Source: Naegleria gruberi
Lineage: Eukaryota
Reading direction: 5' to 3' (one strand)
NCBI GenBank assembly: GCA_000004985.1
Contig: GG738913.1
DNA length: 64,000 nt
In this document: piece after piece, positions 3,001-54,013 of the stretch
Layout: every line of letters starts with the position of its first letter
How positions within the stretch are numbered: the stretch's first letter is position 1
The notes under the pieces: generated by a model
Databases searched by the model: none
What the model saw: the letters and a program-made list of their open reading frames with translations, nothing else
Told to the model about the DNA's origin: nothing
Translations under genes and position numbers: made by a program

Positions 3001-6000
3001 GAACCAAACTTCTATCAATTCGTTCCTATCATGCACTCCTAATTGTACATTAAAAATTTCATATGAATGGAAAATCAATATTGATAACAACCAAGCAGCC
3101 AATCAAACTGGTTTTACCACTTCCATTTCTTTAGGTAATAATTTGATGAGCTTTAATCCACCAATTCAAATCCAATTCAGTACAAGTAATGTAAAAGGAG
3201 AGAAATTCACACTTTCCCTTGCCCTTTTTTCAAACAATGGAAATATTTCATCGAGTACAAGTATGGATATCGTTACCCCAGTCCAACCACCAACAGCATC
3301 TAATTCCACAACTTCAAAATCATCAAATTATTTAATGAGTGTCAATCCAGAGAAGGGAGTTGCCCTGAGTGACTCATTTTCAGTTAGTGTCGCATCATGG
3401 AATGCACCATCACAAATTCTTCCTCTCAAATATGCTATTGGATTTGTTTCTAATGGAAAGGACGTGAGATTTACAGATTATGCACAAACTACTTTGTTCA
3501 ATATTTACCTTCCTTACTTGATCCAACAATCCAGGGGTCAAGTTTCAGAAATTCAACTCTATCTCTATGTTATGGATGCAATTGGAAATGTTGTAACATC
3601 TCCAACTGGACTCTCCATTTCAGTTTCTCCTTTTAATGGAACTTCTAGTGAATTGGTCCAAAAAATCAACGAGCTTGGCACTACTTCACTAGTAGTTGCA
3701 TCCTATGATAAATCCTATACAGTTCTCTCAAGTAGTGGAGGAAATTCAAGTGAGTTAGTGTATGAAATTGTGAAAAATATTCAAATTGATCCAAAGAATC
3801 CAGAAACTGCCCTCACATCCATCACCAGTCTTACATCCACTACGAGTGTAATTAATGAAAATATTGTGAGTGAAGTAGCAAGTAAGATCACCTCGTTTGT
3901 TGATAATGTGAAAGATATCTATGCATACGAAAAGAGAGTATATGGATTTGTCAAAAGCAAGGTTTCACCTGACAATATTCTCTCTACTGTGACTATTACT
4001 TCCAACCTATTAGCAAGTGGAGTTGATAGCGAGAAAACTGTTGGCGTAGTTGATAATGTTGCCTCAATGGTATTGTTAGCAGAAATTCCAAAACTTCTCA
4101 CAAGCTCTGAAAAGCTCCAATACATCTCATTCACAACTGGTATGGTGAATATTACAGTTTCTAGTTTCAAGATGACCTCTCCAATAGAGGGTAATCAACT
4201 AATCGAGGAGGAGAACAATAAGGTATCTGCAAATTTGACAAGTATCATGATGGAATATGGAACCTTAAATAAGGAGTGTGGTCTATCGATGGTCTCCTAC
4301 ACAAAGAACATGAAGTTTGACAATTACACATCAAATACTATTCATGCTTCGAGTATTAACGATTTCAAATTCATTCAAGAGCAAAATATTGTACGACTCG
4401 ATAATCTCGAGCATCCAATTGTGCTATCATTCAAATTATCTCATATTCCACAACAAAACAGTTCAGTAAATTCCACATTCTCCTGCAGATATTGGGATGA
4501 AACTAATAAGATATGGAGCGATAGAGGTTGTCAACTTTCCAATATTGACCTGAATGCTGGCACAGTAGAATGTTCATGCAGCCATACTACAATGTTCACA
4601 ACATTTGTAGAACAAAAGACTACCAGTATTATGATAGCAATGAAAGAAGAAGTTGCAACATTATATTTTGTACAAATAGCTCTTGGTGCTGTTTATACTA
4701 TTGTTGCTTTGGTAATTATTACTGGTTTGATAATATTGAGAAAGGAGCAACCAGTAACAAGTAGACTTATCACCCCATATGTAGGAATGGTGGCTCTCAT
4801 TGCAGAGAGTGTGTTGATTTACATTGTCCAAAGAAGTGTCCTTGTGAGTCAGCTCCTTTCCACAACAGATCCCAAAGTATGGGAAGTTGGTGATAATGCT
4901 GCCAATATTATTGCAAACAGTGTTGCCATTGTTGTGAATACTTTGAATTTGACTGCTACATTGTGCTATGTGATGCAAGTTTCCAGATTCCAATTCCTTA
5001 AACATTTGTACAAGCTCTTGTCCGATAATAGATCAGATATGGCAAAGAATGCCAAGATTTTGAAAGTCCTCAAATTGATAACCTCTCAGAAAATATTCTT
5101 TTCAATTATTGCAATCTTTGCCGTGTTGAATGTTTGTTTCTGGACTCTTTGGGTTGTTCTAGTAAGGACACAAGTCATTGATGCCTCTACCTATACCTAT
5201 ATTGTATCATCTTGTTACATTACTTGTATTCTCTTCTTTGGAGCAGTTATTTGCATTGTAGCCATTGCTGATTGGATTATTTCCACCAAGAAACACGTAA
5301 CAGCAGGTCAGGAAAGAAAGAGAAAGACTGTCAGTTTCACCACTCTCAGCTCTGAACCACGAGAATCCATCAAGAAGCGACTCTTCTCTCCAAAACAACT
5401 CTACGAATGGTTAATTCAAGTTGATGAACCACTCTATTTCCGATTCGAAATGCTCCTCTACATGATTTGCTTTGTCTTCCAAGTGTTAAATCTTGCCATT
5501 GGCTCCTCCAGTCTTTCCTACCGATATGCTGACTTGGATTCATACAAGAAAGCACTTGCTCTCGATGGAATCTCCTTCATCTTTGAAGTACTCTATGTGG
5601 TGAGTTACTTGTTTGTGTTTGGTGGTTTTGCTCTCTTGATTGCCATATTGTACAAGTACAAGAAGAAGAAACAACATGATGAAGCCTCTACTTTTCTCAT
5701 CAACAAATTGAATGGTGGCAACAATAACAAGGTCGACGAAGGAATCATGAGTGAGGAGATGAGGGATGTGCTAGATAAGAACGAAGGCTATCTATTATTC
5801 GAAGCCTTCTGTGAGAAGGAATTCTCTCTAGAAAACCTCTACTTGTACTCTGACTTGAAAGCCAATGAAACCATCACCAAAGGAAGACAATTCACCAACC
5901 TAACAACCTTCATGAGATTCATCTTTAATAACTACATCCGAACAGGAAGCACCACAGAAGTGAATATACCAGCCAAGTGTAGGAATAACTTTTTACTTGT

Positions 6001-6412
6001 CTATAAGAATGTAGCATCAAGTAGTGAACATATGCAACAACAATTGGGAATTGCTGAGAAGGTGAGTAGGAGTGAGGTGGAAAGACTCGATAGGAATCTA
6101 CAGGTGGTTATCAAGAATGATCAAGTAGCTACTTTATCAACTAAAACAACAACTACAACTTCTACTAATGAACAACAACAACAAGAAGGAAATATCAAAT
6201 CTTCATCGCCAGTAGCTGCTGTAGAAAATGTTGATCATGTGGTGGAGGGTGTTGTTTCTGCCTTTGAATTCCTCTACAAGCAAACATTGGTTAATTTGGG
6301 TGATACCTTCTCTCGATTTGTCTTTACGAGTGAATACAAGGAATATTTGGCTTCATTGGAGGCTCAGAAGGTTGTTACGGTGGAAATTATTGCTGCCTAC
6401 GGAGATGTTTAA
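2..6412 (+). CDS. 5'-truncated adhesion-GPCR-like receptor: N-terminal NHL-type beta-propeller repeats, tandem EGF-like modules, Ser/Thr/Asn-rich stalk, GPS/GAIN motif, 7TM core, C-terminal RGS domain
   Basis: Uninterrupted 2136-codon ORF running from the window edge. Repeated ~45-aa units (IAGTG..G.SGDGGLATNA.L..P.GI.VS..GDIYIADS.NHRIRKV) fit NHL repeats. Cys-rich CxxGxC blocks (CSGNGQCVDGSCICN..) fit EGF-like modules. CRYWDETNKIWSDRGC...VECSCSHTTMF fits the GPS consensus (C-x-C-x-H-x-T). Seven hydrophobic helices follow between aa ~1560 and 1890. The tail carries an RGS-like signature (LLFEAFCEKEFSLENLYLYSDL...FIFNNYIRTGS). Stop TAA at 6410-6412. Confidence 0.8.
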   Translation: MIRRVYQDVVNTVVGSGNSGFSADGSFATIAQINKPKSICITSDEDIIFIDSGNNRIRKVLHSNETLITISGQNTSFKAPFTTPIQYSQLYNPTRIKLYENKTIITESTIVRQVVNGVISIVAGVYGSFGVAQEGALATSSYLSFPRSAALDLNGNILIADFNNGKIKLITNSKSYTFAGSKATFGQENVIGTATRLYNGCGFSYYNGEFYWNDSGNCRVLKLGTDGIVRRIAGITGICGFSGDGGLATNALMGVSWGLSVSPSGDIYVAESINSRIRKISNGIITTVAGTSVAGYNGDDIAATSASLNGPPAVFATSTAYYLADAGNRRVRKVSYSTGIITTIAGNGASGSSEENINATSAIIGTSSPRALWVSNDDSVYYADVSNGKTRVVTNGIVSTIAGTGVLGYSGDGGLATNANFRWIYGLWMVGSDLYIADSTNNVIRKLSNNIVTTVAGTGNANFNGDGIPALSANINTANQVIIHPQTSEMFILSSDRIRKVNTNGTISTVVGGIGDGAQAIYALINPTDIHVTNNGTIYLTDSLNHCIRMITSDGVISLVAGSYYGGFGGDNGPAANAVLNSPESLFVNSKGEIYVSDTVNHRVRKIDLNGTITTVAGSGLAGFYGDGGLATNAKLSYPMGIYVSKNGDIYIADYGNHRIRKVFSNGTITTIAGTGSINYNGDIQEATLTTLNSPRGVYMSPNEDEIYIADSGNNLIRKIKLDCPSDYELDKRLGECVQIVKCFGILATDNSVCSGNGQCVDGSCICNNQTFTGPNCSSITCFGKVPSDLMVCSGNGQCVTANNCSCLSGYVGNECQANLNPFSIELLRNETISNNYSYQIKDNGLNMTNYYWTCQNWDPNISISTSGRNAFVTFSSAYSKVYLLSVYASIPNFSPYPPRISNTILFTIISPNVTIQPSFNQTTNETLQNNQTVNSNQTTNNSSIPVQNNQTIANETSTNSNSTDTKSVNISGKLGVFGLPSVLVSKQIDVSAVISNISLNQTSINSFLSCTPNCTLKISYEWKINIDNNQAANQTGFTTSISLGNNLMSFNPPIQIQFSTSNVKGEKFTLSLALFSNNGNISSSTSMDIVTPVQPPTASNSTTSKSSNYLMSVNPEKGVALSDSFSVSVASWNAPSQILPLKYAIGFVSNGKDVRFTDYAQTTLFNIYLPYLIQQSRGQVSEIQLYLYVMDAIGNVVTSPTGLSISVSPFNGTSSELVQKINELGTTSLVVASYDKSYTVLSSSGGNSSELVYEIVKNIQIDPKNPETALTSITSLTSTTSVINENIVSEVASKITSFVDNVKDIYAYEKRVYGFVKSKVSPDNILSTVTITSNLLASGVDSEKTVGVVDNVASMVLLAEIPKLLTSSEKLQYISFTTGMVNITVSSFKMTSPIEGNQLIEEENNKVSANLTSIMMEYGTLNKECGLSMVSYTKNMKFDNYTSNTIHASSINDFKFIQEQNIVRLDNLEHPIVLSFKLSHIPQQNSSVNSTFSCRYWDETNKIWSDRGCQLSNIDLNAGTVECSCSHTTMFTTFVEQKTTSIMIAMKEEVATLYFVQIALGAVYTIVALVIITGLIILRKEQPVTSRLITPYVGMVALIAESVLIYIVQRSVLVSQLLSTTDPKVWEVGDNAANIIANSVAIVVNTLNLTATLCYVMQVSRFQFLKHLYKLLSDNRSDMAKNAKILKVLKLITSQKIFFSIIAIFAVLNVCFWTLWVVLVRTQVIDASTYTYIVSSCYITCILFFGAVICIVAIADWIISTKKHVTAGQERKRKTVSFTTLSSEPRESIKKRLFSPKQLYEWLIQVDEPLYFRFEMLLYMICFVFQVLNLAIGSSSLSYRYADLDSYKKALALDGISFIFEVLYVVSYLFVFGGFALLIAILYKYKKKKQHDEASTFLINKLNGGNNNKVDEGIMSEEMRDVLDKNEGYLLFEAFCEKEFSLENLYLYSDLKANETITKGRQFTNLTTFMRFIFNNYIRTGSTTEVNIPAKCRNNFLLVYKNVASSSEHMQQQLGIAEKVSRSEVERLDRNLQVVIKNDQVATLSTKTTTTTSTNEQQQQEGNIKSSSPVAAVENVDHVVEGVVSAFEFLYKQTLVNLGDTFSRFVFTSEYKEYLASLEAQKVVTVEIIAAYGDV

Positions 6413-19495: not shown

Positions 19496-22031
19496 ATGTC
19501 GCAACTTGATGTCAGCTCACATAATGCAAGAGATTCGTCTATTCCACTCCGTGCTACTACTTCTACCCTTCTAAAACAATCAACACTCGAGCAATCGTGT
19601 GAGAAAGTAAACGAAAGTTCATTAATCATTGAAACATTTCCTTCCCAACATTCTATTGGAAATCAAACACGAAAGGTTCATTCTCCACGTTCAGATCAAA
19701 CTCTTTCCGAAGAAGAAACAAATTCCATCATTTTGGAAATGAAAGAAATGGACGAAATGTTTCGAACAAACAAGAAGAAATCGAAATTTGCACATCTTTA
19801 TCAATCAAATAAGAAACAAGGTTTAAATCAATCGTTTGCCACATCAGAAAAGTTTAGTTCATCATCCCATAATGAAAATTTATGTGCATCTTGTTGTGGA
19901 ACTTTACGTTGGTCAACTGTCATGATTTTGACAGCTGTCTTTTCGATAATGATACTTTTATTTGTTGCAATCATTTCCTCGATTATTGTTACGAGTTATG
20001 ATGAGTTGGAAAGAGGAAATTCCAAAGCAGATATGAAAAGAGTTGTCAAAAGTTTTTATGATGAATTTGTGAATTCATTGGAGGTATGTTTGACTTTTGA
20101 CAATGAGTTTTAATTGAAATTTTGGATAGATTATGCAAGCAGTTGCTGTTTGGGATGAGCCTTATAAATTATTTCAAAGATATTATGATCCATCAGAAAA
20201 TCAAACTGAACTGGCAGTTGACATGCAACTTTTTTTGGAAACTAATATTGATTCAGCTCAAATGTTGTTGGAAAAACACAACTATGCGCTGTTCTATACC
20301 TTGAATGGAACTTTAATTGCAAGTAGAGCTCACAATCTTATAGACGAAAGTCAAGATTTATCCGATTTGTCAAAAATTCCAAAAGAATTATTGGAATTGA
20401 ATGTAAATTCGAATCCTCTTTTCAGAAATGCAGATAAAGCTGGAACTTCGAATGGTGGTTTCCTTAAAGTTTCGAATGGCGTAGTAGAAAATAGCAAAAT
20501 TGTCATGTTAGTGGCGAAACCAGTTTCTCCAAGTAATTTCAATGAAAATAATCCAACTTCTGGATTGATAGTGTATGGTAGACATGTCACTTATCAAACT
20601 AAGGAAAGAAATGTGTTTAGAGCTTCTACATGTGTTAGTTTTTTGAATTTTGACGAAACTTTACAAAAATATTCGAATGTTAATGCTACGAGAGTTTCAG
20701 TAACAAGTAATATTTGGGAGAATGATCAAGTTTTATCCATTGATATGTATGACGACCTCTCTAGTAGAAACTCTCTCGATGATCGTCATTGCTATTCGAA
20801 ATCTGAACTAAACTCAACTTCCCCTCGAGTTGGTTCCATTCAATTCCTTGCCGATCTCAATGGAAACCCAATCCTAGCCATCCGATCCGATACTGAACGA
20901 AACATTTACCTCCTAGGAGTTCGTTCCTTAGCCCTCTCCATTGCCTTACTAGTTTTTTCATGTATTATTGCAGCCATTGTAATCATTGCCTTTGTGGAGA
21001 GGCGAGTATTGAGGAGAATGTTTAAACTTTCAAGGAGAATTCAGGAAATTACAGCATCACATGATCCTAAACAGAGAATTGAAATTGGTCGAGGAGGAAA
21101 CTCAATTAATGCCTCGGAAAGAAATTTGATTTTTGATGAAATTGACACGACGGCGAAATATATTAATGAAATGTTGACTAGTTTGGATATTGTATTGGAA
21201 GAGCAGTTGAAGGAACAGAAAATGTTAAGAAAACTATTGGAAAGAGTGTACACAGCAGAGGAATCAGGAAGTGCCATTATGAATGCTGTGAAAGATGTCG
21301 TGTTTATTGTGAATGGAGATAGTGGACTAGTTCTGAATGCAAATAACAAGTTTTATGAACAGATGGAGAGGAGTGTGATGGAAGTGGAGGCAAAGGATCA
21401 AGTTTATGTTTCGAATTTGTTTTTGGAAATGAAATCACTCGAAGCCAAATTTCAGAATAATTTGAGAACTGCCTTACTCTCCCTTAATGATGGAAAATCG
21501 CATCTTTTCAGAGGAATGACTCCATCTGGTAAAATTATTAGATACAATGTATTCATTTCCAAAACAAAAGTCATGCAAAATAACGAGAAGGTCATTTCAT
21601 TCCTATTTATGGCAAAGAAGGACGATTCACTTTCTTTAGGAATTGACCAAGAAATCATTAATGAAAAATTTGAGAAAATGATTAATAATACGAAAAAGAG
21701 AAGAAAATTCCAGAAATTCTGCTCAGAAAAAGGTCAACTCTACAATTTCAAGTTTATTAGAGAAGTAAGGGATTACAAAACAACGGAACTTCCAATTGAC
21801 CGAGCAAGGAAACAATCTGAAATTTGTTCCAACTTTTTGAGGAAAGATTCTCCATTCCCATTGAATATTGGAGCAATTGATTTGATTAAGGGAGAAATTG
21901 AAAAGATTCTAAAAGAAGAAACACCTCAAATTTCCTTATTTGATGGATTGAATGATATTTTGGAAAGTATTTTGAAATCAGAAGTTTTTACACTTTACAA
22001 AATTCAAAAATCAAATCTTCTCTACACATAA
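19496..22031 (+). CDS. two-TM receptor-like protein with ~330-aa extracytoplasmic domain and C-terminal RGS domain; intron 20084-20129 (46 nt)
   Basis: Exon 1 ends ...SLE at GAG|GTATGT. Acceptor GATAG at 20129. Exon 2 continues in frame (IMQAVAVWDE...). TM1 is VMILTAVFSIMILLFVAIISSIIV and TM2 is IYLLGVRSLALSIALLVFSCIIAAIVIIAFV. The C-terminus has an RGS-like block (FQKFCSEKGQLYNFKFIREVRDYK...FLRKDSPFPLNIGAI...). Confidence 0.75.
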
Positions 22032-29049: not shown

Positions 29050-30330
29050 ATGCAACATTGGTTAGTTGGTGATTTGATATCTGTGATTGCTCCATTCCTC
29101 TCCGTCCGAGAGAGGATAATCTTTACTAGAATCAACAGGACATGGTATCATACAATTCACATGTTGCAAAATATGTGGAAGGATGTTTATTGCAATTTAT
29201 ATCAATTTGATAGGACTGTTGATCCTTTTCCAATAGATGATGACTGTGATGATGAAATGGACAATGAAAATACGGATTGGTTCAAAAAGCTATGCACTTG
29301 TTTCAACAAGTTCCCTAAAAAGATTAAAATTGAAATCAAAATGGAAAACTCGGAACAAATAATATCATCCAAAAAGTTTGATTCTACATGTTATGGAAAT
29401 ATAAATCTAATATTTCCATGGAGTTTGGACATTCTAGAGGGTAAAATTGAAAGATATCAAATGGCATTACAAGATGGCCAAGAAGCTGATCTCTGTGTAT
29501 TCCAAGAATGTTCCACCTATTTCCAATTCAATTTTAATTTGAGAGAATACTATGATGATATCAGATCTATTCATGGTGCCCAGGCAGCACGTTCCAAGCT
29601 AAAGAGCATTTACACTTGTTGTTTGTTCTATGAAATTATGAGTTTGGGACATTATGTTCCCAATCTCTTTCAAGATCAAGCAAGAATACATCCTTGCTCA
29701 CTTTCTTCAGAGAATAGCACTCGAGTACCACTTGCTACTCTACTATTTGCCACTCTCAATGATTGCTATCCTTGGGAGGATCTAGAGGATTTAGATTACT
29801 GTAATATTTCTCCAAACTTTGATGGTCCTGCTTGTTTGTGGTTATCGAGTGATAAATTCATGGAAATTATAGAGTCAATCTATTTCGACTTTGAGGAGAA
29901 GGAATTTAATCAATTAGAGAAGGAAACATTCAAGGCATTTGGTAGAATTGATGGTCAAAGTCCGTCTTTNNNNNNNNNNNNNNNNNNNNNNNNNNNNNNN
30001 NNNNNNNNNNNNNNNNNNNCATTGGTTAGTTGGTGATTTGATATCTGTGATTACTCCATTCCTCTCCGTCCGAGAGAGGATAATCTGTACTAGAATCAAC
30101 AGGAATTTAATCAATTAGAGAAGGAAACATTCAAGGCATTTGGTAGAATTGATGGTCAAAGTCCGTTCTTTTACTTTGATGCCGGAGGAGTAATTGAAGA
30201 GGTTATACACAATGTAAGCTTTGAAATTGTTCAGCCTCAATCTGCTTCTTCTTTATTGGATGCCATCGATGAGGAGGGAAAGAAGAGCATTGTGAAGGTA
30301 ACGAGGCAGGAAGCAAGAAGTTTTTTTTGA
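29050..30330 (+). CDS. hypothetical protein with N-terminal F-box-like segment; interrupted by the gap at 29970-30019 and an assembly-duplicated segment
   Basis: ORF MQHWLVGDLISVIAPFLSVRERIIFTRINRTWYH... (F-box-like L..DL...I..FL). It continues after the gap as ...FGRIDGQSPFFYFDAGGVIEEVIHNVSFEIV...SIVKVTRQEARSFF*, with TGA at 30328-30330. Gene-model continuity across the gap is uncertain. Confidence 0.45.
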
Positions 30331-32611: not shown

Positions 32612-34933
32612 ATGTCAATAACAACACAACATTTCGAAAATTTTAACAATAACAACCACTCCTCACAAACCAATGTGCAAAACACTGCTTCTAGTACCTC
32701 AACAAGTGGCAGCAGTCCAAGAAATAACTCTCACAGAATTAATAGACAATCATTAGAATCTAGATGGAGACTCCGAGAACGTTCTAGAAGATATTCAGTT
32801 GCCTTGTCAACTAATAGTGGTGGAAGTGCTAGTCCTCCATCAACTTCAACAACTTCAACCTCTGCAGCCAATAATAATAACAATTCGAATAATGATTCGT
32901 TTGTTTCTTCTCAAAGTTTTGGATCCAATGAAGAAACACAGCCACAACAGCAACAACAATCAACACCAAGCTCTAGAAGTTCCTCACTCTTTGATGCTTC
33001 CCAAATTCAGAAAAACATTAAAAAGAGAGGCAGTAGTTTGGGAGCTAATTTCATTTCTGGTCGAGATAACAAGACGAATAGTGTTGATGGAGTGGTTTTT
33101 AATGGAACTCAGAGAGATACCTCTCTGTCACTTGCAGTAATGGATTCCTCATTGGCTAATGGTCCAGTTTCAATGACCTATGGTTCTGTTGATGCATTGA
33201 GAAATAGATTTTTGGACTTTGTGAAATCTTGTGGAAGCCAATCAAAACATTTGAAGAATCCACAATTGGATGAAGAGTTTGAGGTTAAATTATTGTTTAT
33301 GGACTATTTCTATGATGGAAGTACTAGAAAACCATCAAAATTATTGAAAGATGTGCCAACTGTTTTGACCTTGTTGGATGTTTACTGTCATCATTTGGTT
33401 TTTCATTTTGATGATTGGCATTCACTTCCAGAAAGTGAAGATGAATATCCATATTTCAAACATATTGTGGAAACAGTCATTCCTGATAAGGAAAAGTTCA
33501 AATGGATGAATCATTCGAGATTTGAACAATTTTTAATTGAAAAGTATCAAGATGCCATCTCTAAGGATTATCCACCACTTCGTTCTGATGAGATTTTGTT
33601 GAATCAACAAGAAACCAAGGAGAAGGAATCATCTTTTTCAACTACTACTGAGCAAACCAACAATTCATTGGATAATCTCCATGCTAGACCAACCATTAGT
33701 TTATTACCTGAAAATTCTTATCAGGAAACTGAGGAATTGAGAAGAGACAGTGTTGCCAGTGATGATTCAAGCACTTCTGATAGTAATGTAGTCATTACTG
33801 AGAATAGTTCCAACCCAATTCCAAAACCAACGCACAGAGTTGGTGTTTTGGAGGAAATTCACATGTTATGCGACATGTTCTTCTATGAATTGGAAGATTT
33901 ATTTGTTCTCTATCAAGAAAAGAATCAAAACTATGTTCACAAATGGGTTCAACTTGGTTTAAAGAATGGATCGATTCCAACCTATGTCATTGAAGTGTAC
34001 CGTAAGAAATTGGAATATAACGAGAGTACGCAATCTCAATTCACAGTTGATGCCAGTGATTTTGTTTCACAACATGTCATTGATAAGGATTGGAAGTTTT
34101 TGAGATATATGTGTAAGGAATATTCACCAGATTGGTATTGCTCTTACAAGGATATTGGAAATGTTGTGCAGTGGACCACTAAGAGAGATTACACAACCGA
34201 TAATTTGAAATTGAGAAACTCCAAAATTGTTGGTTATATTAATTTGCCAATGGAGGATGTTGTGAAATCCTTCTCATTTGATCATCATTTTTCATATGCC
34301 TTTGAGAATATTGAATTCCACAATTATCATCCAATCAATGCTAGTAATTCATTGCACAAGTATCCCTCTGCAACAGTTTCGGGTACATTCAATTTAAGTT
34401 CAGTCTTCTCAAAGAGAAGTATAGAGCAAGTTATTTCATGTAGATCAGTATTTGTGGGTAACGAATTGACTGAACACATGATATTGTTCAAATCATGTGA
34501 TTTATCACCAAACGAAAGTAGTAACTCCAAGAAGGGAAAGGTTAAATTCATGGGTCTTCGTCTCGTTTCTAAAATTGATAATAACAGAACTAGATATTGT
34601 GAATTGAGGTCGGGAAATCTTGGGGGTGTTTTGAATTCTTCCCTAATTATTAACAATCCAATAATTAATAAGAAAGTTGTAAAAGGAGTTCATGGAGGAT
34701 TAATTAATGTATTGAAACTTTTGAAGAATAATGGATTTCCATTCCCAGATGAGAAGGAGAATCACGTAGCTCGTGTTTGGATTGATTATTGTAAACAGTA
34801 TTGCAATGTTGATGTGAAATCTCTGTATGGACAATCAGCAGTAAGAACCATTGATTTATCACATAGCAAGACCAAGTACAGCAATGATGATTCCTCTTCC
34901 TCAACAACAGAAACAACATCATCCAATAAATAA
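32612..34933 (+). CDS. uncharacterised protein, family member 1 of a tandem triplet (long low-complexity N-terminus; C-terminal ~450 aa homologous to the two downstream genes)
   Basis: 773-aa ORF. The C-terminal region aligns with the ORFs at 35357 and 37173 (ELTEHMILFKSCDLSPNE... vs ELVETTFLYKSCNSDTKN...; ...VARVWIDYCKQYCNVDVKSL vs ...WRTFCEYCREYFKVDPNELE). Confidence 0.7.
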   Translation: MSITTQHFENFNNNNHSSQTNVQNTASSTSTSGSSPRNNSHRINRQSLESRWRLRERSRRYSVALSTNSGGSASPPSTSTTSTSAANNNNNSNNDSFVSSQSFGSNEETQPQQQQQSTPSSRSSSLFDASQIQKNIKKRGSSLGANFISGRDNKTNSVDGVVFNGTQRDTSLSLAVMDSSLANGPVSMTYGSVDALRNRFLDFVKSCGSQSKHLKNPQLDEEFEVKLLFMDYFYDGSTRKPSKLLKDVPTVLTLLDVYCHHLVFHFDDWHSLPESEDEYPYFKHIVETVIPDKEKFKWMNHSRFEQFLIEKYQDAISKDYPPLRSDEILLNQQETKEKESSFSTTTEQTNNSLDNLHARPTISLLPENSYQETEELRRDSVASDDSSTSDSNVVITENSSNPIPKPTHRVGVLEEIHMLCDMFFYELEDLFVLYQEKNQNYVHKWVQLGLKNGSIPTYVIEVYRKKLEYNESTQSQFTVDASDFVSQHVIDKDWKFLRYMCKEYSPDWYCSYKDIGNVVQWTTKRDYTTDNLKLRNSKIVGYINLPMEDVVKSFSFDHHFSYAFENIEFHNYHPINASNSLHKYPSATVSGTFNLSSVFSKRSIEQVISCRSVFVGNELTEHMILFKSCDLSPNESSNSKKGKVKFMGLRLVSKIDNNRTRYCELRSGNLGGVLNSSLIINNPIINKKVVKGVHGGLINVLKLLKNNGFPFPDEKENHVARVWIDYCKQYCNVDVKSLYGQSAVRTIDLSHSKTKYSNDDSSSSTTETTSSNK

Positions 34934-35052
34934 TCGTATAATTAACTATAATATTATTAGTCATTGCCAATATATAGTACGCTGTAGCAATAAACGAGAC
35001 AAATGTGATCACGTAATTTCGTTTTATTCGACTTGATAGATAAAATAGTGTA

Positions 35053-35123
35053 GGGGCGGTGGTGTAATGGTAACATCGCAGCCTCCAAAGCTGTGGCCGG
35101 GGGTTCGATTCCCCCTCGCCCCC
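35053..35123 (+). tRNA. tRNA-Trp (anticodon CCA)
   Basis: Manual cloverleaf. Acceptor GGGGCGG/TCGCCCC (one G-U). D-arm GTGT/ACAT with loop AATGGTA. Anticodon stem GCAGC/GCTGT with loop C-T-CCA-A-A (U33, A37). 4-nt variable loop. T-arm GGGGG/CCCCC with loop TTCGATT. Discriminator C. No encoded CCA. Followed by T-runs. Confidence 0.9.
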
Positions 35124-35127
35124 TACA

Positions 35128-35145
35128 TTTTGCTTTTTTCTTTTT
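35128..35145 (+). terminator. oligo-T Pol III termination signal downstream of tRNA-Trp
   Basis: TTTTGCTTTTTTCTTTTT immediately 3' of the tRNA discriminator base. Confidence 0.6.
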
Positions 35146-35356
35146 AAAATTATTCTATTAAGCTTTTCTCGTACTCTTAATTTTCAATTCCAATTGTCAC
35201 TCTTCAAACTTGAAAAATTAGCAAATTATTTCAAAAATATTTTTCAAAATTTTATCTTTAAAACCAAAAAGTAATGAATCATCTCCAACATCTCCAAATA
35301 TCAACAAACATGTAACGCAAGAACAATATCTCTCCCATCAACACTTATCTTTTTTT

Positions 35357-36955
35357 ATGACAGCAACCGCTATGACAGCTGCTGACCTACAAAAATCCAA
35401 AAAAATGTCATTTAGAAACAAGACGAATCCGCCTAAAGTATGCAAATGTCTTCCTAAAATTCCATTCGAAGTGTTGATTGGTTGTTTTCAAGAGAGTGAA
35501 AGGGTTTCGTTTCAAAGTGCTTCAAGTTTTTATTCGAATGCTTTTGGTCAAGGAAGACGAAACACCTTTTCTGGAAAGAGTTGTCTGTATCGAACTGTAG
35601 ACTTACGAACAAAATTTGAAGAATATCTTTACGATAACTTGCCAATATTCGACAGTGAAGTCATTTGTCAAAAATTACAATTTCTTGACATTTTCTGTGA
35701 GTCAATGAAAATCAAAGGAAAACCTCTCTATCACATTAGAGATGTCTTTTCACTTTGCAATACTTATCTTTATGAACTCATTAAGGGTATTGAACAAGAT
35801 GGTTCTGTCATTATCCACAACAATAGTTTGGAATATTCCTTCCTTAAACAGTTTAGTTGTGTTGTGAGTGAGAATGAAGAGTTGTTGCCAGTTTTTTCCA
35901 GTCATGAATATTTGAAGAGTTGGTTTAGTAAGAAACAGAAAGAATTGTTGGAATGGAAAGTGGACGAAACTTTTCAGCACACAACTGAGGAATATCAAGA
36001 TGATCAACTTGGCATTTTGATCACCATGTTTGTCAATCAAATGCATGGACATTTCTTATATTTCCAAGAAAAGAATTCCAAATATTGCAAAAAATGGATG
36101 CAAGAAAACATTACAGAGCTACCGAAACATTTATTCGAATGTCTAAAAAGTGCTGCAGAAAAAACACAAAAATACAGAGATCATCTTGCCTACAGCCACA
36201 ACGATGGCTTTTCCATTCCCAAAATTATCGATGCAGATTTTGAGATTATCCACCACTTGTCGAATCTCAGAAGTTCCAGTTGGAAAATGCTTTCCATCAG
36301 CAAACTCAATGAAATTCTTTCATTTTCATCAACGGAGAATTTCACATCTTGTCCAAAAGGAAAAATTCACAAATTTGTATATTATGAACCTTACAATATT
36401 CTCCAGTTGACCAAAGCAATGTTATCATACAAATATGATCGTCCTTCTGAATTTTACAAACTTGGTGAGTGTCAAGAATATCAAAAACTAGATGTCAATA
36501 ATTCTTCCAAAAAGTATTCGACAGTTGTCATGCCTGTCAGTTTACAACTCAACTCTATCCTGCCAAAACGTCAAACCACATCAATCTTTGCCACCAAAGC
36601 AAAATTCATCAATACTGAACTAGTCGAAACTACTTTCCTTTACAAATCATGCAATTCAGATACCAAGAATCCATACCTCACACTTGGTGGATTTATCCTA
36701 CAAAAAGACGATACGAATCGAACAAGAATAATCGATTCGAAAATGTATCATTTTGGAGGAATTTTACAAACTGATTTTGCGTTGAGTTTATTTGTGGCAA
36801 AATCAAGGAAAGAGTTGAAACCGAGGGTTGAGTGGATGATGGAGAAGGTGAGGGAGAAAGGTTTCGTATTGGATGAAGAGAAGGAATTGGTGTGGAGAAC
36901 GTTTTGTGAATATTGTAGAGAATATTTTAAGGTGGATCCGAATGAATTGGAATAA
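35357..36955 (+). CDS. uncharacterised protein, family member 2 of tandem triplet
   Basis: 532-aa ORF. Roughly 50% identical to the 37173 ORF along its whole length (KLQFLDIFCES.../KLQLLDWFYDP...; ...ILPKHLFECLK/ILPKHLFEDLK; ...LYKSCNSDT...GGFILQKDDTNRTRIID/GGFIIQKDDVDRCRIID). Confidence 0.8.
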   Translation: MTATAMTAADLQKSKKMSFRNKTNPPKVCKCLPKIPFEVLIGCFQESERVSFQSASSFYSNAFGQGRRNTFSGKSCLYRTVDLRTKFEEYLYDNLPIFDSEVICQKLQFLDIFCESMKIKGKPLYHIRDVFSLCNTYLYELIKGIEQDGSVIIHNNSLEYSFLKQFSCVVSENEELLPVFSSHEYLKSWFSKKQKELLEWKVDETFQHTTEEYQDDQLGILITMFVNQMHGHFLYFQEKNSKYCKKWMQENITELPKHLFECLKSAAEKTQKYRDHLAYSHNDGFSIPKIIDADFEIIHHLSNLRSSSWKMLSISKLNEILSFSSTENFTSCPKGKIHKFVYYEPYNILQLTKAMLSYKYDRPSEFYKLGECQEYQKLDVNNSSKKYSTVVMPVSLQLNSILPKRQTTSIFATKAKFINTELVETTFLYKSCNSDTKNPYLTLGGFILQKDDTNRTRIIDSKMYHFGGILQTDFALSLFVAKSRKELKPRVEWMMEKVREKGFVLDEEKELVWRTFCEYCREYFKVDPNELE

Positions 36956-37172
36956 AGTTGTTGTTTCGAATAAGTTTAGGTTCCGGAAATTTGGTTTCGG
37001 ATTAAAAGTTGATTGTAAATTATTTGGTGATTGTAAACTAATTAACTTTCAACATTATTTGTTTCTTATTAATATTGTCGTTTCCCGAACTAATGTTCAA
37101 GATTTTGAAGTTTAGTTTGTTTGGGCAATTCATGTCTTTTAAGAAATTTGATATTTCACGAAAGTTGACACG

Positions 37173-38807
37173 ATGAAAAACGAAGAGAATCATTTTCAAA
37201 CATTAAAAAAAAATAACTTAACAACCTATTCGAAATCCTATTCGAAAGGTCCATTAGAAATGTCGAGTGATGGTTATGAACTGTTAACGATTCCACTTGA
37301 AGCTGTTATTGGCTTTAAAAACGTTCTCTCCAAGAAATCTTCTTCCCAAACATTAAAATCTAGCCGAAGTGTTTCGTCCGCAGCCAAGACGAAACCTACA
37401 CAATCTAACGTGGAAGAAATTCGATACAAATTCGAAGAATATATTTCTTCAGGTGAATTAGAAGAATCCTCACAAATTTCCCTTCAAAAACTTCAACTTT
37501 TGGATTGGTTTTATGATCCAAAAAGGAAAAGATCAATAACTGTGAAAAATCAAGTGGAATTATTCACAACATGTAATTCGTATCTGTTCGATTTGATTAA
37601 ACAGAGTGATGAGTCAGGATTGATGATTCAGGAAGATCAGAGTGTGGAGTTTCCATTTCTGTCACAATTTGATGTCATTGTGCAGGAAAATCAAAAGATT
37701 TTGCCAATTTTTTCATCACACAAATATTCGAAAGAGTGGTTTTTGAAGAAACAACAAGAATTGAAAGAGTTTCAACAGAAAAGATCATCCACCTCGACAG
37801 GAATTGATCTATCGTCTGAAGATATTGCCAGGGATTATGAGGAATTTCAAGATTATCAATTGGATATTTTGGTTGTAATGATTATCAATCAAATGAAAGA
37901 TTATTTCAGTTATTTCCATAATGAAAATGCAAAATATTGTAAAAAATGGTTGCAAGATAATTTGCCAATTCTACCAAAACACTTGTTTGAAGATTTAAAG
38001 ATCAAACATGACAGAATTCAAAAGTTTAAAGATTTACTTTCGTATAAGGAACAAGATATGGTCTATAGCACGATACTTGATTCAGATTTTGAATTTATTA
38101 AGCATTTATCTGAAAGTACATCCGATTGGAAACTATTCGAAAAATCTAAAATTAACTCAGTTCATGTCTTTACCTCAAAAGAGAATTACACGAGTGTTTC
38201 TGGCACAAAAACCATGAAATATGTCTATTATCATCCGTACGATATTCACAAAGCAAGTAAGGGGTTTCTCTCGTTTGATTTTGCAGAACAAGATGGCATG
38301 TTCACTTGTGGAGAATTTAGAGATTACAAACAATTGGATATTAACAATTCATCCAGAAAGTATTCAAGTGCAGTTCGTTCATGTACAATAGATCTAGGGA
38401 AATTCTTCTCCAAACGTCATAATGAAACTGTTGTGACTTCTAAGGCCAAATTCATTGGTAATGAGCTAGTAGAAACCATTATACTTTACAAATCATGTAA
38501 CAGTGATACTACACAAAAAAACAAATTCCTAACTGTTGGTGGATTTATTATTCAGAAAGATGATGTTGACAGATGCAGAATCATTGATTTGAAAATGTTT
38601 AACATGGGTGGTTTTTTACAGAGCGATTTCATTGTAAACTTTGGAATTAAAAATCATTTGAAACAGATGGGACCCATGGTAAGTCAAATGATGAAAGAAG
38701 TTGAGGAAAGTAATTACAAAATTGATTCAGAAAACAAACCAATTTGGAGAACATTTTGTGATTATTGTAGAGAACATTACAAAATTGATGCTAACCTGCT
38801 TGAATAA
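37173..38807 (+). CDS. uncharacterised protein, family member 3 of tandem triplet
   Basis: 544-aa ORF, paralogous to 35357-36955 (see above). Ends ...IWRTFCDYCREHYKIDANLLE*. Confidence 0.8.
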   Translation: MKNEENHFQTLKKNNLTTYSKSYSKGPLEMSSDGYELLTIPLEAVIGFKNVLSKKSSSQTLKSSRSVSSAAKTKPTQSNVEEIRYKFEEYISSGELEESSQISLQKLQLLDWFYDPKRKRSITVKNQVELFTTCNSYLFDLIKQSDESGLMIQEDQSVEFPFLSQFDVIVQENQKILPIFSSHKYSKEWFLKKQQELKEFQQKRSSTSTGIDLSSEDIARDYEEFQDYQLDILVVMIINQMKDYFSYFHNENAKYCKKWLQDNLPILPKHLFEDLKIKHDRIQKFKDLLSYKEQDMVYSTILDSDFEFIKHLSESTSDWKLFEKSKINSVHVFTSKENYTSVSGTKTMKYVYYHPYDIHKASKGFLSFDFAEQDGMFTCGEFRDYKQLDINNSSRKYSSAVRSCTIDLGKFFSKRHNETVVTSKAKFIGNELVETIILYKSCNSDTTQKNKFLTVGGFIIQKDDVDRCRIIDLKMFNMGGFLQSDFIVNFGIKNHLKQMGPMVSQMMKEVEESNYKIDSENKPIWRTFCDYCREHYKIDANLLE

Positions 38808-50057: not shown

Positions 50058-51022
50058 TTATTGAATGAAACATTTCTTCTTTTCATCATCAATTTCCGAA
50101 TCAAATTGTGAATCTTCATCAGCACCTCCACTCTTTGATTGCTTCTTCTTCAATCTCTTTCTATATTTTTCCATCTTTTTTTCATATTCCTCAACTTGTT
50201 TAAAGTATGAATCTGGTGGCCATTTGTTTTCAGTAACATGTTTCAGATTTTCACCTGTTAAAAGTTCCCATTCCCTTCTTGCTTTCATTGGACCATAATT
50301 TGTAGATATGAAATGGAGACAAAAGTTGGCCAATTGATTGGCTTCATAAGTTTGAGCTAGTAACAGTAGACCTATAATGTCAATGTCAGCTTTTTCAATT
50401 CCTTGAGCTACTGATTTGTCAATATTTTTCGAGATGAAAATTTCACACATTGAGGTCAATCCAGACATGCCATATTCGTTGGCCAAGCTCAACAATCCAA
50501 CAGCATTTCTTTCATTGATGGTAGAGTGAGCAGAGTACAGATATTCGAATAGGGCATGGAATTCACTTATTCTATTCTCATTCTCACCAATTTCACCACT
50601 CAAATCTACTTGCCTTGATGAGTGCTCTACGAAATTGCCCTCAAACATTGTTCTGAATACATCACAATTAGCAGAGAGGAATAGTTTGTGTCCCTGAAAA
50701 TTCTTGGAAGAATCAGTCGTGGAAAAGACAATTTCGACATCGGAGTGAGTTTTCTTATCAAAGTACTTTTTCTTAATTTCACTACCCAATAGATCATTAA
50801 GATAGGTTTCAATACTTTCATTGAACACATCTTCCTCTCCTCTCTGGTAATTACTGACTATATTGTCAGTGTATTCACATTCAAAGATGGTAGATGCAAT
50901 CTTGACCTTATTGAGAAATTGATCTTTTTTACACCTTTCCAGCATAGTTTCCGATCCTCCATAATATTGGATTTCCAATAGGGATTTGAAAGCCCTATGA
51001 TGAATAGTGTTGGAGAGTCTGA
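50058..51022 (-). CDS. RhoBTB-like protein copy 2, C-terminal (BTB) portion only visible; remainder in the 2.8-kb gap 51023-53849
   Basis: ~98% identical to 42585-43555, including BTB domain 2 and the C-terminal acidic tail (...[30 protein letters not shown]). ORFs extending into X runs are gap artefacts. Confidence 0.6.
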
Positions 51023-54013
51023 NNNNNNNNNNNNNNNNNNNNNNNNNNNNNNNNNNNNNNNNNNNNNNNNNNNNNNNNNNNNNNNNNNNNNNNNNNNNNN
51101 NNNNNNNNNNNNNNNNNNNNNNNNNNNNNNNNNNNNNNNNNNNNNNNNNNNNNNNNNNNNNNNNNNNNNNNNNNNNNNNNNNNNNNNNNNNNNNNNNNNN
51201 NNNNNNNNNNNNNNNNNNNNNNNNNNNNNNNNNNNNNNNNNNNNNNNNNNNNNNNNNNNNNNNNNNNNNNNNNNNNNNNNNNNNNNNNNNNNNNNNNNNN
51301 NNNNNNNNNNNNNNNNNNNNNNNNNNNNNNNNNNNNNNNNNNNNNNNNNNNNNNNNNNNNNNNNNNNNNNNNNNNNNNNNNNNNNNNNNNNNNNNNNNNN
51401 NNNNNNNNNNNNNNNNNNNNNNNNNNNNNNNNNNNNNNNNNNNNNNNNNNNNNNNNNNNNNNNNNNNNNNNNNNNNNNNNNNNNNNNNNNNNNNNNNNNN
51501 NNNNNNNNNNNNNNNNNNNNNNNNNNNNNNNNNNNNNNNNNNNNNNNNNNNNNNNNNNNNNNNNNNNNNNNNNNNNNNNNNNNNNNNNNNNNNNNNNNNN
51601 NNNNNNNNNNNNNNNNNNNNNNNNNNNNNNNNNNNNNNNNNNNNNNNNNNNNNNNNNNNNNNNNNNNNNNNNNNNNNNNNNNNNNNNNNNNNNNNNNNNN
51701 NNNNNNNNNNNNNNNNNNNNNNNNNNNNNNNNNNNNNNNNNNNNNNNNNNNNNNNNNNNNNNNNNNNNNNNNNNNNNNNNNNNNNNNNNNNNNNNNNNNN
51801 NNNNNNNNNNNNNNNNNNNNNNNNNNNNNNNNNNNNNNNNNNNNNNNNNNNNNNNNNNNNNNNNNNNNNNNNNNNNNNNNNNNNNNNNNNNNNNNNNNNN
51901 NNNNNNNNNNNNNNNNNNNNNNNNNNNNNNNNNNNNNNNNNNNNNNNNNNNNNNNNNNNNNNNNNNNNNNNNNNNNNNNNNNNNNNNNNNNNNNNNNNNN
52001 NNNNNNNNNNNNNNNNNNNNNNNNNNNNNNNNNNNNNNNNNNNNNNNNNNNNNNNNNNNNNNNNNNNNNNNNNNNNNNNNNNNNNNNNNNNNNNNNNNNN
52101 NNNNNNNNNNNNNNNNNNNNNNNNNNNNNNNNNNNNNNNNNNNNNNNNNNNNNNNNNNNNNNNNNNNNNNNNNNNNNNNNNNNNNNNNNNNNNNNNNNNN
52201 NNNNNNNNNNNNNNNNNNNNNNNNNNNNNNNNNNNNNNNNNNNNNNNNNNNNNNNNNNNNNNNNNNNNNNNNNNNNNNNNNNNNNNNNNNNNNNNNNNNN
52301 NNNNNNNNNNNNNNNNNNNNNNNNNNNNNNNNNNNNNNNNNNNNNNNNNNNNNNNNNNNNNNNNNNNNNNNNNNNNNNNNNNNNNNNNNNNNNNNNNNNN
52401 NNNNNNNNNNNNNNNNNNNNNNNNNNNNNNNNNNNNNNNNNNNNNNNNNNNNNNNNNNNNNNNNNNNNNNNNNNNNNNNNNNNNNNNNNNNNNNNNNNNN
52501 NNNNNNNNNNNNNNNNNNNNNNNNNNNNNNNNNNNNNNNNNNNNNNNNNNNNNNNNNNNNNNNNNNNNNNNNNNNNNNNNNNNNNNNNNNNNNNNNNNNN
52601 NNNNNNNNNNNNNNNNNNNNNNNNNNNNNNNNNNNNNNNNNNNNNNNNNNNNNNNNNNNNNNNNNNNNNNNNNNNNNNNNNNNNNNNNNNNNNNNNNNNN
52701 NNNNNNNNNNNNNNNNNNNNNNNNNNNNNNNNNNNNNNNNNNNNNNNNNNNNNNNNNNNNNNNNNNNNNNNNNNNNNNNNNNNNNNNNNNNNNNNNNNNN
52801 NNNNNNNNNNNNNNNNNNNNNNNNNNNNNNNNNNNNNNNNNNNNNNNNNNNNNNNNNNNNNNNNNNNNNNNNNNNNNNNNNNNNNNNNNNNNNNNNNNNN
52901 NNNNNNNNNNNNNNNNNNNNNNNNNNNNNNNNNNNNNNNNNNNNNNNNNNNNNNNNNNNNNNNNNNNNNNNNNNNNNNNNNNNNNNNNNNNNNNNNNNNN
53001 NNNNNNNNNNNNNNNNNNNNNNNNNNNNNNNNNNNNNNNNNNNNNNNNNNNNNNNNNNNNNNNNNNNNNNNNNNNNNNNNNNNNNNNNNNNNNNNNNNNN
53101 NNNNNNNNNNNNNNNNNNNNNNNNNNNNNNNNNNNNNNNNNNNNNNNNNNNNNNNNNNNNNNNNNNNNNNNNNNNNNNNNNNNNNNNNNNNNNNNNNNNN
53201 NNNNNNNNNNNNNNNNNNNNNNNNNNNNNNNNNNNNNNNNNNNNNNNNNNNNNNNNNNNNNNNNNNNNNNNNNNNNNNNNNNNNNNNNNNNNNNNNNNNN
53301 NNNNNNNNNNNNNNNNNNNNNNNNNNNNNNNNNNNNNNNNNNNNNNNNNNNNNNNNNNNNNNNNNNNNNNNNNNNNNNNNNNNNNNNNNNNNNNNNNNNN
53401 NNNNNNNNNNNNNNNNNNNNNNNNNNNNNNNNNNNNNNNNNNNNNNNNNNNNNNNNNNNNNNNNNNNNNNNNNNNNNNNNNNNNNNNNNNNNNNNNNNNN
53501 NNNNNNNNNNNNNNNNNNNNNNNNNNNNNNNNNNNNNNNNNNNNNNNNNNNNNNNNNNNNNNNNNNNNNNNNNNNNNNNNNNNNNNNNNNNNNNNNNNNN
53601 NNNNNNNNNNNNNNNNNNNNNNNNNNNNNNNNNNNNNNNNNNNNNNNNNNNNNNNNNNNNNNNNNNNNNNNNNNNNNNNNNNNNNNNNNNNNNNNNNNNN
53701 NNNNNNNNNNNNNNNNNNNNNNNNNNNNNNNNNNNNNNNNNNNNNNNNNNNNNNNNNNNNNNNNNNNNNNNNNNNNNNNNNNNNNNNNNNNNNNNNNNNN
53801 NNNNNNNNNNNNNNNNNNNNNNNNNNNNNNNNNNNNNNNNNNNNNNNNNACAGAGGATTTGACTGGGTTTCAATACAAGGTATGTTGAATACTAATCAAT
53901 GGACTCAATTTGAATTCATTGGACAGTTTACCTTTCTATATGTTTACTCATCTTTGAAAATGCGAACCACCTTTTTGTTCCAATATTTATTATTTTGATC
54001 ATTGGAAAGAAGT

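What the first reader, a model, noticed from the sequence alone, without database searches (positions are those of the whole stretch)
32612..38807. Tandem triplet of paralogous genes of unknown function with a tRNA-Trp gene inserted between members 1 and 2
Three same-strand genes (773, 532, 544 aa) share a ~450-aa C-terminal region (~50% identity between members 2 and 3; member 1 more diverged with a long low-complexity N-terminus). Conserved blocks include ILPKHLFE.LK, LYKSCNSDT, GGFI.QKDD..R.RIID and a C-terminal WRTFC.YCRE. I could not place the family in a named domain. A Pol III tRNA gene within a tandem Pol II array is a possible boundary/insulator element.
Basis: seen in the sequence. 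Interest (0 to 1): 0.5.

Follow-up and report, generated by a model that had tools for sequence, protein, structure and literature searches.

The report
Three Naegleria START-domain paralogs plus tRNA-Trp
Three neighbouring genes of the amoeba Naegleria gruberi are real paralogs, and their "unknown" conserved C-terminal half is a divergent START lipid-binding domain; the tRNA-Trp gene between them looks like an ordinary tRNA gene in a compact genome.

Summary
Three same-strand intronless ORFs (773, 532 and 544 aa) are paralogs, and a genuine tRNA-Trp(CCA) gene lies between the first two. The window is Naegleria gruberi: members 1 and 2 are identical to annotated "predicted proteins".

The family was found only in Naegleria and Willaertia and in unnamed metagenome contigs, with several deep subfamilies. 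Members 2 and 3 are a young tandem pair. Member 1 belongs to an old, different subfamily with an orthologue in N. lovaniensis.

The insulator idea has no support. N. gruberi is reported to carry ~924 tDNAs, roughly one per 44 kb, and none of six related loci has a tRNA.

Verdict: a divergent member of a known domain family. Interest is low to moderate.

The parts
32612..34933 (+). Member 1, 773 aa (NAEGRDRAFT_74399). It has a low-complexity N-terminus of about 190 aa, then a helical domain, then a START domain, then a Ser/Thr-rich tail.
   Evidence: ORF. Exact match to XP_002670642.1. 50% identical over 587 aa to N. lovaniensis C9374_002784. It falls in a separate clade of the family tree.
33185..34021 (+). 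Member 1 helical domain (aa 192-470, including a low-complexity insert).
   Evidence: Mapped through alignment A3 onto residues 79-282 of the member 3 model.
34022..34810 (+). Member 1 START domain (aa 471-733).
   Evidence: Mapped through alignment A3 onto residues 283-538 of the member 3 model.
35053..35123 (+). Nuclear tRNA-Trp(CCA) gene, 71 nt, with no intron. Its B-box is GGTTCGATTCC, and a T-run terminator (TTTTGCTTTTTT) begins 5 nt downstream.
   Evidence: ARAGORN. Rfam RF00005 at 57.5 bits, E 9e-10. Sequence.
35357..36955 (+). Member 2, 532-aa ORF. The public model P0002 starts at the second Met (35372) and is 527 aa.
35591..36166 (+). Member 2 helical domain (aa 79-270).
   Evidence: mapping onto the model.
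36167..36934 (+). Member 2 START domain (aa 271-526).
   Evidence: mapping. hhalign.
37173..38807 (+). Member 3, 544 aa. It is an intact ORF with no matching entry in the public protein collections, so it is probably unannotated.
   Evidence: ORF. No self-hit. The exact sequence is absent. It was the sequence modelled.
37407..38018 (+). Member 3 all-helical domain (aa 79-282, about 9 helices, pLDDT mostly above 90). No known relative was found.
   Evidence: AF2 model. No Pfam or PDB sequence hit. hhalign against RGS gives 0.4% probability.
38019..38786 (+). Member 3 START domain (aa 283-538). The order of elements is alpha1, beta1-3, alpha2/3, beta4-9, a long alpha4, and one extra C-terminal helix that carries WRTFCDYCRE.

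Best explanation
The three genes encode soluble proteins of a family found here only in Naegleria and Willaertia (both Heterolobosea) and in unnamed metagenome contigs. Each protein has a disordered or low-complexity N-terminus, a family-specific all-helical domain of about 200 aa, and a canonical C-terminal START domain. By analogy with every characterised long START domain, the START module most likely encloses one hydrophobic ligand (a sterol, phospholipid or sphingolipid) in its helix-grip tunnel, gated by the long C-terminal helix. The protein would then act as a non-vesicular lipid carrier or lipid sensor, with the helical domain providing targeting or partner binding. The gene cluster arose by local duplication. 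Members 2 and 3 are a relatively recent tandem pair, and member 1 is a much older paralog that has stayed or landed next to them. The tRNA-Trp gene is an ordinary Pol III gene sitting in one of the short intergenic spacers of a compact, tRNA-rich genome. What is shown: the paralogy, the fold, the homology to START, the taxonomic distribution among the named hits, and the authenticity of the tRNA. What is inferred: ligand binding, lipid transfer or sensing, and the role of the helical domain.
Against: No member of the family reaches even E=1 against Pfam START, and a profile search of PDB sequences finds nothing. The START assignment therefore rests on a predicted structure plus a transitive profile link. 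Some helix-grip proteins are enzymes or receptors for non-lipid small molecules. Nothing here bears on expression or localisation. The helical domain packs confidently against START (pTM 0.87), which might indicate a function other than simple targeting.
Confidence: 0.7

Rival explanations
1. The tRNA-Trp gene acts as a chromatin boundary or insulator that separates member 1 from members 2 and 3, through TFIIIC/Pol III occupancy as described for tDNAs in yeasts and mammals.
For: The tRNA is genuine, with a canonical B-box and terminator. It sits 119 bp from the stop of member 1 and 233 bp from the ATG of member 2. It coincides with the border between the old paralog and the young pair.
Against: N. 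gruberi is reported to have 924 tDNAs (PMC2888827). In a genome of about 41 Mb (my own knowledge) that is about one per 44 kb, so one in a 64-kb window is expected. The window has exactly one. The 423-bp spacer is within the range of neighbouring spacers, which run from 59 to 687 bp. None of six related loci carrying family members, about 85 kb in total, has any tRNA. These are from N. lovaniensis, N. fowleri, Willaertia magna and three metagenome contigs. No tDNA insulator activity has been tested here for Heterolobosea.
Confidence: 0.05
2. The helix-grip domain is not a lipid carrier. It could be a receptor or enzyme for a non-lipid small molecule, as in PYR/PYL, polyketide cyclases or Bet v 1, or a pure protein-interaction scaffold.
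Confidence: 0.15
3. The family is a degenerate offshoot of RGS+START signalling proteins. On this view the N-terminal helical domain is a highly diverged RGS domain, and the proteins regulate G-alpha subunits in response to a lipid.
For: The nearest sequence relatives of the family's START domain are RGS+START proteins with the same domain order, including N. gruberi NAEGRDRAFT_59499. The N-terminal domain is all-helical, like RGS.
Against: No family member hits Pfam RGS at E up to 1. hhalign of the family's helical domain against the RGS regions of those relatives gives 0.4% probability. The domain is about 200 aa, against about 120 aa for RGS.
Confidence: 0.1

Closest known systems
StAR-related lipid-transfer (START) domains of STARD10, STARD4/5, StAR/STARD1, STARD3/MLN64, CERT/STARD11 and PCTP/STARD2 (Pfam PF01852; Bet v1-like/SRPBCC clan)
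   Different: Sequence identity is only 7-15%. Pfam's START model detects no member. There is an extra conserved C-terminal helix (WRTFCDYCRE / DYC motif) after alpha4. The domain is fused to a family-specific helical domain, not to PH, FFAT, MENTAL, RhoGAP or thioesterase modules. The ligand is unknown.
RGS+START proteins of Naegleria and relatives (for example N. gruberi NAEGRDRAFT_59499 = P0060, and the metagenomic P0050, P0061 and P0067)
   Same: Their START domains are clearly homologous to the family's (hhalign 99.9%, E 5e-34). They share the motifs D-F..K..ID.D..F, DW, KYP, KR, KSC, K.D.NRTR and N.GG. They also have the same layout, with a helical N-terminal module followed by START.
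   Different: Their N-terminal module is a recognisable RGS domain (PF00615, E down to 2e-17). The family studied here has a longer helical domain with no detectable RGS signal.
tDNA chromatin boundary elements (yeast HMR tRNA-Thr barrier, S. pombe centromeric tDNAs, mammalian tDNA insulators)
   Same: In both cases a Pol III tRNA gene with an intact B-box lies between two Pol II genes.
   Different: There is no evidence here of heterochromatin, differential regulation, tDNA clustering or positional conservation. The position is not conserved in related genomes.

Membership tests
START domain (StAR-related lipid transfer, PF01852) | Helix-grip fold of about 210 aa: a nine-stranded antiparallel sheet wrapped around a long C-terminal helix, plus N-terminal alpha1 and the alpha2/alpha3 insert. 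| tested here: met
START domain (StAR-related lipid transfer, PF01852) | A direct match to the Pfam START profile at or above the gathering score. | tested here: not met
   None of the 43 family members hits PF01852 at E up to 1. The PDB sequence profile search also finds no START chain.
START domain (StAR-related lipid transfer, PF01852) | Sequence homology to bona fide START domains, established through intermediates. | tested here: met
   The family profile hits RGS+START proteins at E 1e-9 to 1e-4. P0067 scores 25.6 bits on PF01852 against a cut-off of 22. P0064 gives a sub-threshold START hit. hhalign gives 99.9% probability and E 5e-34 over 246 columns.
START domain (StAR-related lipid transfer, PF01852) | An enclosed hydrophobic tunnel that binds one lipid molecule, with lipid-transfer or lipid-sensing activity. 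| not testable with these tools
   Model coordinates could not be inspected, and biochemical tests are outside the scope of these tools.
RGS domain (PF00615), considered for the N-terminal helical domain | A match to the RGS profile, or profile-profile similarity to RGS domains of the nearest relatives. | tested here: not met
   There is no PF00615 hit at E up to 1 in any of the 43 members. hhalign against the RGS regions of 9 RGS+START proteins gives 0.4% probability. A fold-level test of the isolated domain was not possible.
Eukaryotic nuclear tRNA gene (tRNA-Trp) | Cloverleaf structure, CCA anticodon, internal A and B boxes, and a downstream oligo-T terminator. | tested here: met
   ARAGORN. 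Rfam tRNA at 57.5 bits, full-length match 1-71. GGTTCGATTCC and TTTTGCTTTTTT are visible.
tDNA insulator / boundary element | Positional conservation, or non-random association of the tDNA with the gene array. | tested here: not met
   There is no tRNA in the six related loci L001-L006. The observed density of one tRNA per 64 kb matches the genome-wide expectation.
tDNA insulator / boundary element | Demonstrated barrier or enhancer-blocking activity that depends on TFIIIC. | not testable with these tools
   This needs chromatin and expression experiments.
Tandem gene duplicates | Adjacent, same-strand genes with significant full-length similarity that are each other's closest relatives. | tested here: met
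   This is met for members 2 and 3 (42% identity, E 2e-128; sisters in the tree). Member 1 is adjacent and homologous but belongs to another subfamily, so the feature is only partly met for the 'triplet'.

The most novel reading that the evidence does not exclude
The ~200-aa helical domain is a new fold, or an unrecognisably diverged RGS-like module, that is rigidly coupled to a START lipid sensor. On that reading, this expanded amoeboflagellate family would be a previously undescribed class of lipid-gated signalling or targeting proteins, evolutionarily derived from RGS+START proteins.
Probability: 0.12. Interest if true: 0.45.

Novelty: new member of a known kind. Interest (0 to 1): 0.25.

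Why it matters
The result turns three N. gruberi genes (two annotated only as 'predicted protein', one without a public protein entry) and about 40 representative relatives in Naegleria and Willaertia into candidate lipid-binding proteins. The relatives include proteins of the pathogen N. fowleri. It shows that Pfam's START model misses a whole expanded subfamily, and it reveals an evolutionary link to RGS+START proteins. This is useful for annotation and for anyone studying sterol or lipid trafficking in Naegleria, where sterol metabolism is regarded as a drug target (my own knowledge, not checked here). It does not overturn anything. The tRNA-insulator idea, which was the more unusual part of the finding, has no support.

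Tried and rejected
(1) Pfam scans of the three proteins and of all 43 family members gave no meaningful hit.

(2) Profile searches of PDB sequences with A2 and A3 gave only low-complexity Ser-run matches and non-significant CBL hits at E 0.56.

(3) AF2 with only 5 sequences gave pLDDT 44, which is unusable for fold search. This was solved by using the 65-sequence alignment.

(4) The search for homologous proteins with the full family alignment (A3) was swamped by low-complexity words and returned only the two N. gruberi proteins. With the trimmed START alignment (A5) it returned nothing. Per-species counts of paralogs could therefore not be obtained.

(5) The metagenome scan with back-translated motifs gave no confirmed locus.

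(6) The afdb50 fold library was unavailable. As a result, neither full-length architectural matches nor the N-terminal domain could be compared with AlphaFold DB.

(7) hhalign of the N-terminal helical domain against RGS gave 0.4% probability, so this was rejected at the sequence level.

(8) Synteny between the window and the N. lovaniensis locus of the member 1 orthologue was absent.

(9) The look-up of encoding contigs for the N. gruberi proteins P0001 and P0002 found nothing on record. Other N. gruberi family loci and other tRNA-Trp copies could therefore not be inspected.

(10) Literature searches for Naegleria plus START or lipid transfer found nothing relevant.
Full report
**What is there.** The stretch 32612-38807 holds three uninterrupted + strand ORFs of 773, 532 and 544 aa. 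A 71-nt tRNA-Trp(CCA) gene lies at 35053-35123 on the same strand (ARAGORN; Rfam tRNA 57.5 bits against a gathering score of 29). It has a canonical B-box and a T-run just downstream. It is the only tRNA in the 64-kb window.

The three proteins are homologous well beyond chance. Members 2 and 3 share 42% identity over 517 aa (E 2e-128). Member 1 matches members 3 and 2 at 28% and 23% over about 330 aa (E 1e-31 and 2e-22) (alignment). Its '~50% identity' is a little high: the figure is 42-43% overall and 47% in the C-terminal 317 columns.

**Source organism.** Member 2 is 100% identical to a Naegleria gruberi 'predicted protein' on a 236,320-bp scaffold. Member 1 is exactly NAEGRDRAFT_74399 / XP_002670642.1. 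Member 3 has no exact entry and gave no self-hit in the 5.8-billion-protein search. It therefore appears to lack a public gene model, although it is an intact and conserved ORF. The window otherwise looks like ordinary gene-dense N. gruberi sequence with assembly gaps.

**The family.**
- A profile of the paralogs searched against 1.84 billion representative proteins found 73 hits, 42 of them at E<1e-30.
- Every named strong hit is a hypothetical protein from N. fowleri, N. lovaniensis, N. gruberi or Willaertia magna. The rest come from unnamed metagenome contigs. On the data available, the family was found only in Naegleria and Willaertia.
- A neighbour-joining tree on the conserved region shows several deep subfamilies.
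- Members 2 and 3 are sisters. They sit in a clade with two other N. gruberi proteins from other scaffolds (P0001, and P0033 = NAEGRDRAFT_79813) and two metagenomic sequences.
- Member 1 sits in a different clade with N. lovaniensis C9374_002784 (50% identity over 587 aa) and two metagenomic orthologues.
- The 'triplet' is therefore a young tandem pair next to an anciently diverged paralog.
- In N. lovaniensis and in one metagenomic relative, the member 1 orthologue instead lies beside a succinyl-CoA ligase beta gene, with a further homologous gene nearby. The flanking genes show no synteny with the window.
- In N. fowleri and Willaertia, the members I looked at are singletons within 10 kb on either side.

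**What the conserved region is.**
- Pfam finds nothing for any of the 43 members, even at E=1. Profile searches of PDB sequences are also empty.
- A 5-sequence AlphaFold run was poor (pLDDT 44). With a 65-sequence alignment (A4) the model of member 3 reached pLDDT 87.1 and pTM 0.87.
- The model shows a disordered N-terminus (about residues 1-75), an all-helical domain (about 79-282), and a C-terminal alpha/beta domain (about 283-538).
- The C-terminal domain has the order alpha1, beta1-3, alpha2/3, beta4-9 and a long alpha4. An extra helix after alpha4 carries the WRTFCDYCRE motif.
- In Foldseek against the PDB, the 33 best hits are all START domains: STARD10 at E 4e-8, then CERT, STARD13, STARD5, STARD4 (TM 0.73), PCTP and a bacterial START.
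- Giant-virus START proteins top the viral library.

**Independent sequence evidence.** The weak tail of the profile search (E 1e-9 to 1e-4, matching only the C-terminal 250 positions) consists almost entirely of proteins with an N-terminal RGS domain followed by this region. One of them, P0067, passes Pfam's START gathering score. Another is N. gruberi NAEGRDRAFT_59499. hhalign between the family's C-terminal alignment and the corresponding region of these RGS+START proteins gives 99.9% probability and E 5e-34 over 246 columns.

**The N-terminal helical domain.** It remains unassigned. It occupies the position that RGS holds in the nearest relatives. However, hhalign against those RGS regions gives 0.4% probability, and no member hits Pfam RGS.

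**The tRNA.** It is genuine, but there is no reason to treat it as special.
- A published survey counts 924 tDNAs in N. gruberi (PMC2888827). For a genome of about 41 Mb (my own knowledge) that is about one per 44 kb, so one in this window is expected.
- The spacer that holds it is 423 bp, within the range of neighbouring spacers of 59-687 bp.
- None of six related loci with family members, about 85 kb in total, carries a tRNA.
- An insulator function cannot be excluded by sequence analysis, but nothing found here points to one.

**Verdict.** The 'unknown family' is resolved as a divergent START-domain family found only in Naegleria and Willaertia among named hits, with a novel helical partner domain. 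The insulator idea is unsupported. This is a new member of a known kind and useful for annotation. It includes an apparently unannotated gene and N. fowleri homologues. Its general interest is modest.

Noticed in passing
window 37173-38807 (+): Member 3 is an intact 544-aa ORF that is 42-52% identical to its paralogs. It has no exact or near-identical entry in the protein collections, whereas members 1 and 2 do. It probably lacks a gene model in the public N. gruberi annotation.
   Followed up: partly
window 2-6412 (+): A 2136-aa ORF runs off the window start. It has NHL/teneurin-NHL repeats, EGF-like domains, a GPS motif and a C-terminal RGS domain. This is a receptor-like protein with a built-in RGS.
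   Followed up: no
window 20133-22031 (+): A 632-aa ORF combines a CHASE4 sensor domain with a C-terminal RGS domain. It is another unusual RGS architecture in the same window as the relatives of RGS+START proteins.
   Followed up: no
window 51023-53849 and ten shorter N runs (27426, 29970, 45125, 47739, 48772, 49850, 54700, 58202, 60486, 62853): These are assembly gaps. The long ORFs listed at 50058-53873 (-), 50997-53888 (+) and 51007-53862 (+) are artefacts of the large gap. The ORF at 29050-30036 also crosses a 50-N gap.
   Followed up: yes
L001 4283-12346 (N. lovaniensis) and L003 1115-7834 (metagenome contig): The member 1 orthologue lies next to a succinyl-CoA ligase beta gene. On the far side of that gene is a family member (P0016) in L001, and a gene with weak similarity to the member 1 N-terminal part in L003. 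N. gruberi does not share this arrangement, and there is no flank synteny.
   Followed up: partly
window 37290-37346 (member 3 aa 40-58) and the equivalent in member 2 (aa 34-45): A short conserved N-terminal motif (LLTIPLEAVIG / LPKIPFEVLIG) is shared by members 2 and 3 and by P0001. It lies ahead of the helical domain and is modelled as a helix with pLDDT of about 70-88. It may be a docking motif. Member 1 lacks it.
   Followed up: no
Willaertia magna contig JBEGDK010000144.1 (L006 and elsewhere): Two family members that are more than 90% identical (ABK040_012420 and ABK040_012374) lie on the same 269-kb contig. This indicates recent duplication of the family in Willaertia as well.
   Followed up: no
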